Below are positions 60 to 61,914 of a stretch of DNA of 64,000 bases, piece by piece. Position 1 is the stretch's first letter; each line of letters begins with the position of its first letter. Both the position numbers and the translations under genes were made by a program. The notes beneath the pieces are model-generated. The model was not told the DNA's origin. It saw only the letters and a program-made list of their open reading frames with translations, and made no database searches. Origin of the DNA: Octopus vulgaris (lineage: Eukaryota); the NCBI GenBank assembly GCA_951406725.2, contig OX597814.1, positions 48,856,001-48,920,000 of the forward strand, read 5' to 3'.

Positions 60-1260
60 CGTGTATGTGCGCGCGCCTGCGAGTGTGTGTGTAAGTATGT
101 ATGTGTGTGGATGTGTGAGTGTGTCTGTGTGTAAGTCTGGGTGTCAGTGTGTCCGATGAATGTATGTAAGTATGTGTGTGTATATGTGTGTATATAGATG
201 TATGTCCGTGTGTGTGTGTGTGTATGTGTATGAGTGTGTATGTATGTACGTGTGTGTGTGGAAGTGTGTGTATGTGCATGTGTGTGCGCGTGCATGCAGG
301 TGTGTGAGTGAGTGTGTGTGTGTATGTGTGAGTGTGTATGTCTGTGTGTGTAGGATACATGTATGTGTATGGGTGTATGTATGTGTGTGTGTGTATGTAT
401 GTGTACGTGCGTGTGTGTGTGTGTATGCATGTATGCATGTATGCGTATGCATGTGCGTATGTGTGTGTGTGTGTGCATGTGTGTAGGTATATATGTATGT
501 GCGTATATGTGTGTGTATGTGCGTACATGTGTGTGAGTGTATGCATGTGTGTGTATGTAGGTGTATGTATGTATGTATGTATGTATGTATGGGTGTGTGT
601 ATGTATGTGTGTGTATGCATGTGTGTGTATGTAGGTGTGTAGGCGTGTGTGTATAGGTGTATGTATGTATGTATGTATGGGTGTATCCGTGTGTGTTTGT
701 GTGTGTGTATGCATGTGTATGTAGGTGTGTGTGTACGTATGTAATATATGTATGTATGCGTGTGTGTGCGTGTGTATGCGTGTGTGTGTGTATGTAGGTG
801 CGTATGTATGTGTGTGGGAGTGTAGGTGTGTGTGTGCGTGTATGTGTGCGTGTGCGTGTATATGTTGGTGTGTGTGTGTGTGTGAGTGTGAGTGTATGGG
901 TGTTTGTCATGCATGTGTGTGCGCGTGCAGGCGAGTGTGTGTGTAAGTATGTGTGTGTGTGTATGTATGTGTGAGTGTGTATGTGTGTATGTCTGTGTGT
1001 ATGTATGTGCGTATAGGAGTATGTAAGTATGTGTGTGTGTATATGTGTGGGTGTATGTATATATGTATGTGTGTGTGTGTGTGCATGTGTGTAAGTATAT
1101 GTGTGTGGGCGTATGTATGTGTATGTGTGTGTGTTTATGTATGTGTGTATGTATGTGTGTAGGCGTGTGTGTATAGGTGTATGTATGTATGGGTGTGTGT
1201 CTGTGAGTGTTTGTGTGTGTGTGTAGGTATGTGTGTATGTATGAGTGAAGGTATGGCTGT
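60..1260. repeat. Degenerate (GT)n/(GTAT)n microsatellite
   Basis: Direct inspection. Confidence 0.95.
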
Positions 1261-28412: not shown

Positions 28413-29250
28413 GTTTCTTTATTGGCCACACAGGGCTGAACACATAGGGGACAAAATACAAAGTAGAGCTTTTCTTTTGGGGAATAAGAAGAGAAGAAAG
28501 AAAAAAGTGGGTCGAATTTCGATCAAACGGGATTGTTGGGAAAAAAAGGGCCGATCAATAGGGATCGTGTACCACAGAAATGTCGATGTAAAAAAGGGAA
28601 ACAGATTAGGTTTATCCGTAGAAAGAAAAACCTACGGAAAAGACCACGGTAACCTTGGGCAATAACGTCATATAAAAAACACATTTAGTAAGTGACTCTC
28701 TTTTTTCCCTTCTTTTTTTTATTTTGGTTCATAGGATTATGCTCAAGCTGACTCCGTCATTTACACGTGCCATCCTTGCTACATTCGCCCATCTTTTTTT
28801 CAAACATTCACTAGACAAAACTTCCCTCTCTACTCTCACCTTCCTCTTCAAGTGATACTTGAAGCTGATGAGAGATTGACCAGAGAGGAAAGTGTTTGTC
28901 TCTAGACCTTGCAGACGCGTCCACCATACATATTCTTTGGTCATAGCCACAAGTACGATGAAAATGGCTTTCCCTTCCCGTTTCAAGGAAGGAAGCGCGA
29001 CAATATTCACGATAGACTCGGTTGATAAACCGACTCGTCCCACACGCGATACCAGTCGTTTGACATAGGGTCACAGGTCGGAAATGGTTGGACACTGTAC
29101 GAGTGCGTACAGGACGGTTTCGTCGCTCTAACCGCATCTCGGGTAGGTCAGCCCGTGTTTCTCGAGCCATGCCTGTAGAGCCTATCCCGAACGGGTAGCG
29201 CTTCTCGATAGCACTGCCAGGCCAGGGATTTCTGGAAGTTGTCCATATCT
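28413..29250 (-). mobile_element. 5'-truncated L1/Tx1-like LINE 3' end
   Basis: FQKSLAWQCYREALPVRDRLYRHG...PRCG*SDETVLYALVQC (decayed zf-RVT), ORF2 C-terminus, and a T-rich 3' UTR ending aataaagaaa. Confidence 0.8.
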
Positions 29251-34374: not shown

Positions 34375-34530
34375 ACATAAGGGACTAAAGCCATCTGAAT
34401 ATGGCTAGGGACAGGGCAGGGTGGTGGGGGTGTTACTGTTGCATTTAGCCCCAGGCGAACATCGACGTCACCAGAAAGGCTCGACACCGTCACGGTGCCC
34501 TAAACCTGCAAAGGGAGGTAATTCCCCGAT

Positions 34531-34604
34531 GAAGCGGAAACCACACACGGACCATGGTTTCAAGGTGTATTGCCTATCATCGGCGTGTGGTAGGCCTCCG
34601 CTTC
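34531..34604 (-). ncRNA. Type I hammerhead ribozyme, unit 1 (predicted cut GUC| between 34550 and 34549)
   Basis: Minus strand reads gaagcgga..accacacg CCGAUGA u agg caauaca ccu u GAAA ccaugg UC cgugugugguu uccgcuuc. Stems I, II and III form; stem III ACCAUGGU is palindromic. Confidence 0.8.
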
Positions 34605-34889
34605 CTCGACGAATTCTCACTATGCAGGATTTCTTATATAGATTTTCAAGCAAAATACATTTGCTGATTTCGAAAATCTGTTCGAAAGCAATAATAATTC
34701 TCTAAAAGGGATATAGACAGTAACTGCTCGATAACATAAGGGACTAAAGCCATCTGAATATGGCTAGGGACAGGGCAGGGTGGTGGGGGTGTTACTGTTG
34801 CATTTAGCCCCAGGCGAACATCGACGTCACCAGAAAGGCTCGACACCGTCACGGTGCCCTAAACCTGCAAAGGGAGGTAATTCCCCGAT

Positions 34890-34963
34890 GAAGCGGAAAC
34901 CACACACGGACCATGGTTTCAAGGTGTATTGCCTATCATCGGCGTGTGGTAGGCCTCCGCTTC
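34890..34963 (-). ncRNA. Type I hammerhead ribozyme, unit 2
   Basis: Same motif as unit 1. Confidence 0.8.
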
Positions 34964-35248
34964 CTCGACGAATTCTCACTATGCAGGATTTCTTATATAG
35001 ATTTTCAAGCAAAATACATTTGTTGATTTCGAAAATCTGTTCGAAAGCAATAATAATTCTCTAAAAGGGATATAGACAGTAACTGCTCGATAACATAAGG
35101 GACTAAAGCCATCTGAATATGGCTAGGGACAGGGCAGGGTGGTGGGGGTGTTACTGTTGCATTTAGCCCCAGGCGAACATCGACGTCACCAGAAAGGCTC
35201 GACACCGTCACGGTGCCCTAAACCTGCAAAGGGAGGTAATTCCCCGAT

Positions 35249-35322
35249 GAAGCGGAAACCACACACGGACCATGGTTTCAAGGTGTATTGCCTATCATCG
35301 GCGTGTGGTAGGCCTCCGCTTC
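35249..35322 (-). ncRNA. Type I hammerhead ribozyme, unit 3
   Basis: Same motif as unit 1. Confidence 0.8.
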
Positions 35323-35606
35323 CTCGACGAATTCTCACTATGCAGGATTTCTTATATAGATTTTCAAGCAAAATACATTTGCTGATTTCGAAAATCTGTT
35401 CGAAAGCAATAATAATTCTCTAAAAGGGATATAGACAGTAACTGCTCGATAACATAAGGGACTAAAGCCATCTGAATATGGCTAGGGACAGGGCAGGGTG
35501 GTGGGGGTGTTACTGTTGCATTTAGCCCCAGGCGAACATCGACGTCACCAGAAAGGCTCGACACCGTCACGGTGCCCTAAACCTGCAAAGGAGGTAATTC
35601 CCCGAT

Positions 35607-35680
35607 GAAGCGGAAACCACACACGGACCATGGTTTCAAGGTGTATTGCCTATCATCGGCGTGTGGTAGGCCTCCGCTTC
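35607..35680 (-). ncRNA. Type I hammerhead ribozyme, unit 4
   Basis: Same motif as unit 1. Confidence 0.8.
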
Positions 35681-35965
35681 CTCGACGAATTCTCACTATG
35701 CAGGATTTCTTATATAGATTTTCAAGCAAAATACATTTGTTGATTTCGAAAATCTGTTCGAAAGCAATAATAATTCTCTAAAAGGGATATAGACAGTAAC
35801 TGCTCGATAACATAAGGGACTAAAGCCATCTGAATATGGCTAGGGACAGGGCAGGGTGGTGGGGGTGTTACTGTTGCATTTAGCCCCAGGCGAACATCGA
35901 CGTCACCAGAAAGGCTCGACACCGTCACGGTGCCCTAAACCTGCAAAGGGAGGTAATTCCCCGAT

Positions 35966-36039
35966 GAAGCGGAAACCACACACGGACCATGGTTTCAAGG
36001 TGTATTGCCTATCATCGGCGTGTGGTAGGCCTCCGCTTC
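35966..36039 (-). ncRNA. Type I hammerhead ribozyme, unit 5
   Basis: Same motif as unit 1. Confidence 0.8.
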
Positions 36040-36382
36040 CTCGACGAATTCTCACTATGCAGGGTGCGTGTGTATGTGTTAAAGAAAAGAACATTTGCTG
36101 ATTTCGAAAATCTGTTCGAAAGCAATAATAATTCTCTAAAAGGGATATAGACAGTAACTGCTCGATAACATAAGGGACTAAAGCCATCTGAATATGGCTA
36201 GGGACAGGGCAGGGTGGTGGGGGTGTTACTGTTGCATTTAGCCCCAGGCGAACATCCATAAAGAGGCATACTCTAAAACATTAAGAACAGTCTGACAAGT
36301 CGCCTACAGCCAAACGCTTTATAGGTGCGAAACCAACTTTCACTTTCAGACTGGCCATAACAAACAACTACATACATACAGT

Positions 36383-46437: not shown

Positions 46438-46848
46438 TATATGGGTTTCTTTATTATTTAAGCTATTATATTTTCTAAGCCTAATCAGAGTACAATCTTC
46501 TACATTACCAAGTGATTCTTTCTTCATTTCTTTTCTACGTAAGGTGAAAGCTAATCTTTGCTGACGAGGTCATAACAAAGCCGAAACACTCTCGGAACTA
46601 TCTTCTATACTAGTCAAAATATTGAAAATAACGTTGATCATTGGAAAATATCGTTTCATCGCATAATTATTTCTAGTAAGCTATCAGGTGCTTTCTGCAT
46701 TATATATGTTTATATTAATCTGAGATACTTTACACTAAAAGCATTCGTGTTTTTGAATTTAAGTTCCACAAAAGTAGAGTCAAAACCAACGATTCTCAGC
46801 TATTGCAGTTCTCCGTGTAATACGCCGAGAGAATTTTATTTTTAATAA

Positions 46849-48900: not shown

Positions 48901-49358
48901 CTGTTTTATATTTCTATGTTGTATTGGGTACTTGAGTCTAATAACAGATTTTATCATCATCATTGTCTTCGTCGTTGTTGTTACAATGATTTTAAAAGCA
49001 TCAATATATCAAAAGTCTTAGTTAAGTATGACTGTATGGTCACAGCCATATCCCCAAGATTGAAATCTGTGAGACATAAACTGTTAGAGGAACCTTTACT
49101 GTTCTTGAGTGGTTAGACTTAATTCATCATCTAATTTAACAATACCACCTGGCTTTTTGGTGCCTTCAGCGAAGTTCACCATGTTACACGTATTCACGTC
49201 AATTCTCCACTCTGAGAATAACTCCCTCCATTGCTTCCTTTTTATCAACAGTTACAGAGGTTCCAGAAAACGTCATGAGTACTTCAAGTCATTTGATTTT
49301 TCTTTTTGAACTTAAATCGCAATTCTTGAAATAACGAAATGCTATTCCTGTATTTCAG

Positions 49359-49507
49359 ATGAAGTTCGCACAGGCATGTACAGTCAGCTTTTCCACCCCG
49401 AACAACTCATTAGCGGTAAAGAAGATGCTGCCAACAACTACGCAAGAGGTCACTACACAGTTGGTAGAGAAATAATTGACCAAGTCCTGAACTCCATCAG
49501 GAAAATG
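49359..49507 (+). CDS. TUBA: Alpha-tubulin exon 3 ([50 protein letters not shown])
   Basis: tttcag| acceptor and atg|gtaaga donor; 149 nt; phase matches exon 2; [13 protein letters not shown] motif. Confidence 0.97.
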
Positions 49508-49614
49508 GTAAGATTATCAAGCGAAATATTTAAAGAGGAGAGGGTTGATGATTGATGGAGAGTTCCTTAACAGTGGACGTGAGATATTAGGAAAGGATAC
49601 CTTATTACTCAATG

Positions 49615-49672
<58 letters not shown>

Positions 49673-49677
<5 letters not shown>

Positions 49678-49887
49678 GTTGCATACTGTCAACTTAATGT
49701 GACAGTCCCATGAAGGGAATCATAATACTGCTATTTAGCCCTAGGAAGCAGCAACGCTTCATCTCGGTCTTGACACATTTCCTGTGTCCTTATGTTTACA
49801 AGGGGGAGATAAGCACCTACACCCAGCTAAGCCTGCATCCAGAGATTAGTTTCTGAGTCTTTGCTCGTCATCAGTCTGGAGCAGCAT

Positions 49888-49890
<3 letters not shown>
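49673..49890 (-). mobile_element. Solo retrozyme/pLTR-like element between two (TA)n tracts in a tubulin intron
   Basis: Shares colinear blocks with the 359-bp unit (tactg..atttagccc.agg, gacac..gtg.cc hairpin, caa.ggg.g.taa, HHR). (TA)n on both sides. Confidence 0.65.
49833..49884 (-). ncRNA. Type I hammerhead in a diverged solo relative of the 359-bp unit
   Basis: Minus strand reads cugc uccaga CUGAUGA c gag caaaga cuc a GAAA cuaa UC ucugga u gcag. Canonical core; stem III is one change from the palindrome ACUAGU. Confidence 0.75.
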
Positions 49891-49934
<44 letters not shown>

Positions 49935-51525: not shown

Positions 51526-51966
51526 GACGACCGGAAATCATTGGTATCTGTACTTAAAGTATGTTTGTATTGGGGATGGTGGAGGCAAGAAGACAACAAT
51601 AATGGTTAAAAAGAAACAACTTCGGTAACGTTGTTTTACTTTTTAATTAGCTTGAAATTGAAACTTTCATCTTATTGGTTTTGCTTATGTAGACTGTTCT
51701 ATTTGATATTCTTCTACATCTTTGAATACCTGTGTAGTTTTATATTTAGGTGCATGGTACAATACCTAACTACTGAGTCATATATAGACGAAGCGTTATC
51801 ATACCCAAAACATTATACATATGTCTGAAAAAGAAAACTCCTAATTAGAAGCGTTGCAGTTGTTAAGACTGTGTTTGACTGATCCATTTACGGGAAAATA
51901 ATGTAACATTTTCTCTTCTTTTTTTACATTGCGATTTTAAAGAAATTTATTCTCTTTCTTACACAG

Positions 51967-52119
51967 GCCGATCAATGTTCTGGATTGCAAGGTTTCCTCG
52001 TGTTCCATAGTTTTGGTGGCGGCACCGGTAGTGGTTTCTCCTCACTCCTAATGGAAAGACTATCTTCAGATTACGGCAAGAAATCCAAATTAGAATTCGC
52101 CGTGTATCCAGCACCTCTG
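51967..52119 (+). CDS. TUBA: Alpha-tubulin exon 4 ([51 protein letters not shown])
   Basis: acacag| acceptor and ctg|gtaatc donor; tubulin signature GGGTGSG; 153 nt, phase 0/0. Confidence 0.97.
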
Positions 52120-52497
52120 GTAATCAACTTACGTCATTTCTTAATTTGTCTCATTACTTTCCTCGCCTTACTTTCTCAAGAATTTCAAGTCACCAATTAC
52201 TTAATGAGTAATGTGAGGGAGAAGTAAGGAAGATGTCCATTATTCATTTGTTATACATTGCGCTCAAGTCAGACAGATTTAGGAATTGTGATTTTCGTGC
52301 CCTTTTTTCTAATATGCATTGACTGCACAACAGGATCGAAACTGCTACGATAATTCGGATCGTAAATCAATTAGCCGGATCTTATTACTATCACACGGTC
52401 CTTTCTTTATTATAATCTATTCAATATTAAAATGCACTATTACTAAGTCATGAGTATAAAAATAAATTATTAATGTTATCAATATTAAAATATTATA

Positions 52498-61867: not shown

Positions 61868-61914
61868 GTCGTGCTGACGAGTCTAAAAGGAGGACGAAAT
61901 AGTACTTTTGCGAC
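61868..61914 (+). ncRNA. Possible degenerate minimal hammerhead
   Basis: gtcgt g CTGACGA gtct aaaagga ggac GAAA tag TA c tttt gcgac. Core and stem II are good; stem I is bulged and stem III is weak. Confidence 0.4.

What the first reader, a model, noticed from the sequence alone, without database searches (positions are those of the whole stretch)
49673..49890. Diverged solo relative gives covariation support for the ribozyme fold
Seen: a ~220-bp island between two (TA)n runs is colinear with the 359-bp unit but highly diverged, while pairing is kept. Stem I is uccaga/ucugga versus cacacg/cgugug, stem II is gag/cuc versus agg/ccu, loop II starts CAA in both, stem III is (near-)palindromic, and the core is canonical CUGAUGA/GAAA. 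Inference: the structure is under selection in an old, diversified family that targets (TA)n. It is antisense to tubulin, so it would not cut the pre-mRNA.
Basis: partly seen in the sequence, partly recalled or inferred. Interest (0 to 1): 0.72.

Follow-up and report, generated by a model that had tools for sequence, protein, structure and literature searches.

The report
Truncated copy of hammerhead retrozyme family
This 218-base intron insert is a shortened, mutated copy of a common non-coding jumping repeat with a predicted self-cutting RNA; its many diverged relatives keep the same fold, carry the insertion scars of Penelope-type enzymes, and in four places are joined to other such RNAs exactly at the predicted cut site, which suggests that the cutting happens in living cells.

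Summary
Observation confirmed. 49673-49890 (-) is homologous to the 359-bp array (profile E 4e-10 and 1e-13; pairwise alone is marginal), and six of nine stem I/II pairs differ on both sides with none broken. It is not a lone relic. It is a 5'-truncated 0.6-unit copy of a separate ~350-bp tandem family (360 exact hammerhead matches), 8 substitutions from the family majority, two of them in the ribozyme. The genome holds about ten or more subfamilies (5,930 motif matches, control 8). Across 33 representatives, stems I and II covary beyond a tree-aware null, and ten different stem III palindromes point to dimer cleavage. Insertions end at two fixed sites, one per inverted arm, often in (TA)n: the Penelope-like footprint. 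Four chimeric insertions, one from this family, join two hammerhead RNAs at both predicted cut sites. Verdict: a new member of animal non-LTR retrozymes. Selection acts on the source lineages; this copy is likely dead. Cleavage, circular RNA and the partner enzyme are untested or not found. This scan found the two-start footprint and U6 joined at ribozyme cuts before, on other DNA.

The parts
49673..49890 (-). 5'-truncated copy (about -45 to +170 relative to the predicted cut) of a ~350-bp non-coding hammerhead repeat family (family B); its 3' end is the family's first fixed end (site 1)
49838..49880 (-). Type I hammerhead motif: 6-bp stem I, CUGAUGA, 3-bp stem II with C.A first pair and CAAAGA loop, GAAA, stem III; predicted cut between 49844 and 49843
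   Evidence: sequence, coordinates, covariation
49846..49846 (-). Private G-to-A change that breaks the stem III palindrome (ACUAGU to ACUAAU)
   Evidence: 93 of the first 100 listed of 360 family matches have ACTAGT (counted from the listing); duplex -4.8 versus +1.8 kcal/mol; all laid contigs of 4 runs carry the family base
49882..49882 (-). Private A-to-G change in the UAC internal loop 1 of extended stem I
49772..49788 (-). Conserved downstream hairpin shared by all subfamilies
   Evidence: same-branch co-change p 0.03
49733..49745 (-). Best-conserved downstream motif (3' arm of a covarying hairpin); candidate protein-recognition region, inferred
49685..49706 (-). Terminal hairpin just before the fixed 3' end (site 1), the inferred reverse-transcription start
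49619..49672 (.). (TA)27 tract at the element's 3' end, the inferred target
49890..49931 (.). (TA)21 tract at the element's 5' end
49359..49507 (+). Tubulin exon upstream of the host intron; the next exon lies within 51907-52224
   Evidence: Pfam PF00091; contigs of two runs cover 49357-49508 as parts of longer records
34375..36256 (-). 5.2-unit array of the 359-bp sister subfamily (family A; core CCGAUGA, stem III ACCAUGGU); its 3' end aligns with the solo's 3' end

Best explanation
The insert is a shortened, mutated copy of a ~350-base non-coding tandem repeat (an animal non-LTR retrozyme) whose hammerhead is predicted to cut only as a pair, and it was likely pasted into a TA repeat by a Penelope-type enzyme supplied by another element. 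Shown: family, copy anatomy, covarying stems, palindromes, two fixed 3' ends, inverted arms, chimeric junctions. Inferred steps: tandem source copies are transcribed; two hammerheads pair through the self-complementary stem III and cut; a protein ligase (RtcB-type, as reported for other retrozymes) closes monomers into circles and now and then joins fragments of different RNAs; a Penelope-like RT/GIY-YIG protein nicks AT-rich DNA and starts copying inside the RNA at about +170 or +228, one start for each DNA end, running through the ribozyme site on a circular or uncut multimeric template. This copy stopped after about 215 bases in one arm, lies antisense in a tubulin intron and would be inactive.
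For: Family: 2277 candidates, the 39 best other copies 92-94% identical; 350-bp tandem dimer; longest ATG frame 48 aa. Fold: 22 of 29 pairs with double changes, 92.6% of cells paired versus 26-52% when slid; 2 of 29 pairs at E<0.05 with a tree-shuffle null, and the 4 top-ranked of 13,861 column pairs are all proposed pairs; same-branch co-changes 11.0 versus 2.8 (stem I) and 8.5 versus 2.0 (stem II), p 5e-5. Dimer: 27 of 30 stem III palindromic, 4.0 expected; RNAcofold gives the double hammerhead for the family majority but not for the solo. Penelope footprint: 41 of 70 ends at site 1, 24 at site 2, 5 elsewhere; two-armed insertions with one end of each type in 21 of 32 family B and 16 of 18 family A cases; tail, inversion and internal starts are described for PLEs (PMC11167929; 10.1101/2021.04.23.441226). 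Cleavage in cells: four independent chimeras joined at two predicted cut sites, two of them with the same junction in both arms.
Against: No autonomous partner with a homologous repeat was found: 33 GIY-YIG loci from at least three Penelope-like families gave no hit to their own end repeats. Rfam does not call the motif. The G10.1-C11.1 pair is missing in families A and B, and family A has U4C. 40 of 70 copies read through the cut site and 5' ends do not pile up there (5 of 70 within -2..+5). The C3-G8 to U3-A8 change and the stem I extension are not significant on the tree (p 0.24, 0.50). The 33 sequences were hand-picked, come from one genome, and the tree included the tested columns. The chimeras are few; one junction has 3 bases of microhomology, and the donor hammerhead of the other three has GCAA for GAAA and a weak stem I. 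In a preprint 8 of 9 predicted Xenopus dimers did not cleave in vitro (10.64898/2026.07.22.740005).
Confidence: 0.85

Rival explanations
1. The insert is the 3' end repeat (pseudo-LTR) of an autonomous Penelope-like element, left by 5' truncation, not a separate non-coding element.
For: PLE end repeats carry palindromic type I hammerheads and give the same scars (PMC4209133, PMC11167929); several Penelope-like families with long open frames exist in this genome.
Against: Upstream of the hammerhead the copies run into the family's own 3' part, i.e. a closed ~350-bp unit, in families A, B and the other subfamilies where enough is kept; no coding frame; no homology to the end repeats in 33 PLE loci.
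Confidence: 0.06
2. The family spreads by Penelope-type insertion, but the hammerhead no longer cuts; the fold is kept as a protein-binding structure and templates are uncut multimeric transcripts.
For: Non-canonical first stem II pair, U4C in family A; 40 of 70 copies cross the cut site; cleavage was not needed for insertion by the anole PLE in vitro (PMC11167929); some arrays hold mixed units in the same order on both arms (L340).
Against: Catalytic residues and ten different perfect palindromes are kept across subfamilies about 60% alike; junctions exactly at the predicted cut sites.
Confidence: 0.07
3. The paired changes come from DNA-level correction of inverted repeats during copying, not from selection on an RNA fold.
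For: Inverted repeats can be homogenised by template switching (general knowledge, recalled); two downstream hairpins covary as well.
Against: The stems frame an invariant unpaired hammerhead core with fixed spacing; the 3-bp stem II covaries; the first stem II pair, which abuts the others, is unpaired in 12 of 33.
Confidence: 0.02

Closest known systems
Animal non-LTR retrozymes (Cervera and de la Pena 2020, PMC7229834, passages and sections 14 and 17 read; Li, Clavereau and Pollet 2026, 10.64898/2026.07.22.740005, parts 1-3 of 5 read)
   Same: Non-coding 350-360-bp tandem unit with one type I hammerhead (mussel units are 350-390 bp), low GC (41-47%), monomers and arrays, dimer-type stem III as in amphibians, proposed Penelope mobilisation.
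   Different: No cephalopod or comparable family appears in the parts read; here about ten or more coexisting subfamilies with different palindromes, a relaxed 10.1-11.1 pair, and direct insertion scars (two starts, inverted arms) instead of homology to a PLE end repeat. Circular RNA not shown here.
Penelope-like elements and their hammerheads (PMC4209133, parts 1-2 of 4; PMC11167929, parts 1-2 of 4; 10.1101/2021.04.23.441226, passages)
   Same: Two internal 3' ends separated by a tail, inverted 5'-truncated arm, AT/(TA)n targets, palindromic stem III, U3-A8 core variant in some subfamilies.
   Different: No reading frame; tail about 45-58 bases rather than 30-40; 6-bp stem I with a short stem II and CAA loop, like canonical metazoan hammerheads rather than the long-stem-II minimal PLE type.
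U6/LINE-1 chimeras made by RtcB ligation before retrotransposition (PMC6789731, abstract and introduction seen)
   Same: A 2',3'-cyclic-phosphate end joined to a 5'-OH end, then reverse transcribed and inserted.
   Different: Here both ends would come from hammerhead cuts and the inserting enzyme would be Penelope-type; the ligase is inferred, not tested.

Membership tests
Type I hammerhead ribozyme | Conserved core C3 U4 G5 A6 N7 G8 A9, G12 A13 A14, A15.1-U16.1, H17 | tested here: met
   solo sequence; invariant columns over 33 sequences
Type I hammerhead ribozyme | Three-way junction closed by stem I, with covarying stems I and II | tested here: met
Type I hammerhead ribozyme | G10.1-C11.1 closing pair of a 4-bp stem II | tested here: not met
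   C.A in the solo and most of family B, U.U in family A; G-C in 8 of 33 representatives
Type I hammerhead ribozyme | Stem III, or a palindrome that forms it in a dimer | tested here: met
   family: ACUAGU in 93 of 100 listed, 27 of 30 palindromic across subfamilies; this copy is broken (ACUAAU)
Type I hammerhead ribozyme | Match to an Rfam hammerhead model | tested here: not met
Type I hammerhead ribozyme | Self-cleavage | not testable with these tools
   indirect only: junctions at predicted cut sites
Non-LTR retrozyme | Tandem unit of about 170-400 bp with one type I hammerhead | tested here: met
   350-bp dimer L175; 359-bp arrays; the window copy itself is 0.6 unit
Non-LTR retrozyme | Non-coding, no LTR features, dispersed in many copies | tested here: met
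Non-LTR retrozyme | Expressed as unit-length linear and circular RNA | not testable with these tools
   only assembled contigs of runs guessed to be RNA were offered
Non-LTR retrozyme | End repeat homologous to an autonomous PLE | tested here: inconclusive
   no homology in 33 PLE loci; the sample is a small part of 6136 and 16630 candidates
Penelope-like element (autonomous) | RT plus GIY-YIG reading frame | tested here: not met
Penelope-like element (insertion mode) | Two fixed 3' ends with a tail, inverted 5'-truncated arm, AT/(TA)n target | tested here: met

The most novel reading that the evidence does not exclude
The genome carries a radiating population of ribozyme RNA circles in which each lineage has its own stem III palindrome as a self-recognition code for paired cleavage, and in which cut fragments are cross-ligated to the cut 3' ends of Penelope elements, so that retrozymes can swap the end that the copying enzyme recognises and thereby change partner or found new families.
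Probability: 0.25. Interest if true: 0.7.

Novelty: new member of a known kind. Interest (0 to 1): 0.42.

Why it matters
How animal retrozymes are copied, and whether their weak dimer-type hammerheads cut in cells, are open questions: the published link to Penelope elements rests on co-occurrence and end-repeat homology, and the anole study saw no RNA ends at the ribozyme site. This family gives a natural covariation series, ten palindrome variants to test pairing specificity, insertion scars that name the enzyme class, and fossil junctions that point to cleavage and ligation in the germline. The window copy itself is an ordinary decaying insertion with no predicted effect on tubulin.

Tried and rejected
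Rfam: nothing relevant. Other CTGANGA..GAAA matches in the window: 13 besides the solo; none passed my descriptor, which also misses the solo because of its broken stem III. Two hammerheads 3.58 kb apart looked like the ends of a coding element but are a tandem duplication without a frame. Partner search: a young Neptune-like family with frames up to 1214 codons, a 781-codon family and others end in (TA)n and have their own hammerheads, but none is homologous to this unit; one search added only unnamed relatives. The idea that the solo is a full copy of a transcript starting at about -46: 6 of 70 5' ends fall in -53..-45 on a broad spread, not a clear peak. A pile-up of 5' ends at the cut site: 5 of 70, not clear. 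One search collapsed segments with identical flanks (65); one search corrects this (70). Expression: no RNA holder listed on record; runs X1, X3, X5, X8, X13 are contigs guessed to be RNA; 'goes back 359' joints fit genomic tandems as well as circles. Cross-pairing of stem III palindromes does not explain the chimeras (duplex -0.2 and 0.0 kcal/mol). Lunse et al. on dimeric PLE hammerheads was not held; I know it only as cited in PMC6765202. Supplements of the bioRxiv preprint were closed and those of the other papers were not opened; they may list related families.

Full report
Observation. The 218 bases at 49673-49890 lie between (TA)27 and (TA)21. On the minus strand they hold a type I hammerhead layout: TCCAGA/TCTGGA stem I, CTGATGA, GAG/CTC stem II with loop CAAAGA, GAAA, ACTAAT, and a predicted cut after 49844. 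The 359-bp array at 34375-36256 has the same layout with CACACG/CGTGTG, CCGATGA, AGG/CCT and ACCATGGT. The pairwise alignment is colinear to the last base, so both elements end at the same aligned position in (TA)n. It beats all 1000 shuffles under two lenient scorings but not under two strict ones (54 and 24 of 1000). Tubulin exons on the plus strand flank the insert, so it is antisense and intronic. Rfam has no hammerhead match here.

What it is. The window lies in G000 (2.8 Gb; earlier notes call it a probable cephalopod, which I did not test). The solo has 2277 candidate relatives; 40 were scored and the other 39 are 92-94% identical. A family pattern gives 360 matches against 0 for the control. 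Copies run upstream into the family's own 3' part and a tandem dimer gives a unit of 350 bp, 204 of 337 aligned bases identical to the 359-bp unit, with no frame over 48 codons. The window copy spans about -45 to +170 from the cut site and differs from the family majority at 8 of 214 sites, among them loop 1 (49882) and stem III (49846). Seventy copies chosen on a 3' motif average 6.9% from the majority; core positions do mutate in them (10 of 460 cells), though less than other sites (4.5%, which includes sub-lineage variants). So this is a decaying truncated copy of a second family, not an old lone relative.

Superfamily and covariation. A degenerate pattern that fixes the core, CAA and GAAAC..GTC but not the pairing has 5930 matches against 8 for the control. 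In the first 30 loci the inner three stem II pairs form in 29 and stem III is a perfect palindrome in 27, 4.0 expected (these are about ten subfamilies, not 30 independent cases). I aligned 33 hand-picked representatives. Of 29 proposed pairs 22 show double changes, and 92.6% of cells pair against 26-52% with slid partners. With an R-scape-like tree-shuffle null of my own, 2 of 29 pairs reach E<0.05 and the four best of 13,861 column pairs are all proposed pairs. Changes on the same branch number 11.0 versus 2.8 for stem I and 8.5 versus 2.0 for stem II (p 5e-5); two downstream hairpins also covary (p 0.03 and 5e-5); the C3-G8 switch and the stem I extension do not reach significance (p 0.24, 0.50). 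The tree included the tested columns. Ten distinct palindromes occur, and each pairs best with itself (with ACATGT nearly as good on ACACGTGT). RNAcofold folds two family-majority cores into the double hammerhead, but not two copies of the solo. Dimer cleavage through such palindromes is the published model (PMC4209133, parts 1-2 read; PMC6765202, passages).

How it spreads. Among 70 family B segments chosen only on a 3' motif, 41 end at +164..176, 24 at +214..237 and 5 elsewhere; 25 of 70 ends abut (TA)4 or longer against 4.4% of background 34-mers; 40 of 70 extend 5' past the cut site. Of 32 loci with two inverted arms, 21 have one end of each type and none has two of the same type; 11 have a second end I could not assign. 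In 22 young family A stretches, 16 of 18 two-armed insertions have one arm ending near +178 and the other near +222, nearly all in TA tracts, and private variants are often shared by all units of both arms. Tail, inverted arm and two internal starts are the marks of Penelope-like elements (PMC11167929, parts 1-2; 10.1101/2021.04.23.441226, passages). Penelope-like families with long open frames are present, but none of 33 loci has an end repeat homologous to this unit. The partner is not identified. A circular template fits the homogeneous arrays; L340, with mixed units in the same order on both arms, fits a multimeric one.

Hint of cutting in cells. L061 showed a retrozyme hammerhead that ends at C17 and continues into the 3' end of a GIY-YIG element. 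In that element the same sequence begins right after its own predicted cut site. Targeted searches listed 41 hammerheads with a non-family base after C17; 33 are point variants or other subfamilies, and 8 rows at 6 independent places lose homology there. Four of the six continue with the post-cut end of another hammerhead element: three of a sister subfamily (C1:1716107 with its duplicate, C15:13484393, C5:142466247; different variants of either partner) and one of the solo's own family (L381, C3:116938264; native partner in L115). Two have the junction in both arms. For comparison none of 48 hammerhead-selected family B copies breaks between +1 and +61. The halves cannot re-form stem I, and their palindromes do not cross-pair, so a protein ligase is the likely joiner, as for retrozyme circles (PMC7229834) and U6/L1 chimeras (PMC6789731, abstract). 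Limits: four events, found partly after the fact; 3 bases of microhomology at L381; an atypical donor ribozyme (GCAA) in the other three; the L115 element has no frame in the stretch held.

Comparison and novelty. The family meets the tested features of animal non-LTR retrozymes (PMC7229834; 10.64898/2026.07.22.740005, which sampled 31 vertebrates, 3 insects and 1 coral). It works like a Penelope-mobilised element but is not an autonomous one. Searches for hammerhead or retrozyme with octopus, cephalopod or mollusc, for non-autonomous Penelope anatomy and for cleavage-site chimeras listed no paper on this family or on hammerhead-to-hammerhead chimeras; I saw most only as listings. A squid genome paper counts 235 hammerhead hits without analysis (PMC6962438, passages). 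Earlier notes of this scan report the two-start footprint for other retrozymes of this genome and U6 joined at ribozyme cuts; I saw those after, or independently of, my own counts, except the LINE-target and start-site idea, which I took from them and tested in part.

Verdict. Real, well supported as a structure, and a new member of a known class. The window copy is likely inactive and harmless to tubulin. The added value is the natural palindrome series and the cut-site chimeras. Interest 0.42.

Noticed in passing
L004:1365-1508; also L007, L011, L099, L100, L416 just upstream of the hammerhead: LINE-like 3' ends abut the retrozyme about 45-57 bases upstream of the cut site; in L004 a ~140-bp fragment sits between two copies of a 16-base target duplication. 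Agrees with earlier notes on a Tx1 LINE that targets these repeats.
   Followed up: partly
window 34375-36256: The array alternates a variant at one unit position (period two), as if copied from a two-unit template or duplicated as a dimer; its 5'-most full unit also has a replaced patch near 36060-36090.
   Followed up: partly
L142-L144 (G000:C13:24945000-24954000, C10:56744000-56752000, C2:34638500-34647500): Very young Neptune-like Penelope family: 150 of 150 scored matches identical over 165 aa, frames up to 1214 codons, own hammerhead with core CTGTTGA, ends in (TA)n.
   Followed up: partly
L301, L306, L316, L310, L348-L377: Two further GIY-YIG families with U3-A8 hammerheads in their end repeats; one (1981 motif matches) has GCAA in place of GAAA in the copies seen.
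   Followed up: partly
L068, L213, L202, L093, L105, L401, L402, L408, L417: Small duplications, insertions or one-base losses right at the predicted cut site in several copies; could be scars of imprecise ligation.
   Followed up: no
window 46561-46586 (+), 61874-61899 (+), 28865-28891 (+): Other CTGANGA..GAAA motifs inside common repeats; 14 such matches in the window against 3.9 expected; none passed my type I descriptor, other topologies untested.
   Followed up: no
L091 (G000:C1:1714000-1722000): A 3.58-kb tandem duplication that carries one of the chimeric insertions twice.
   Followed up: yes
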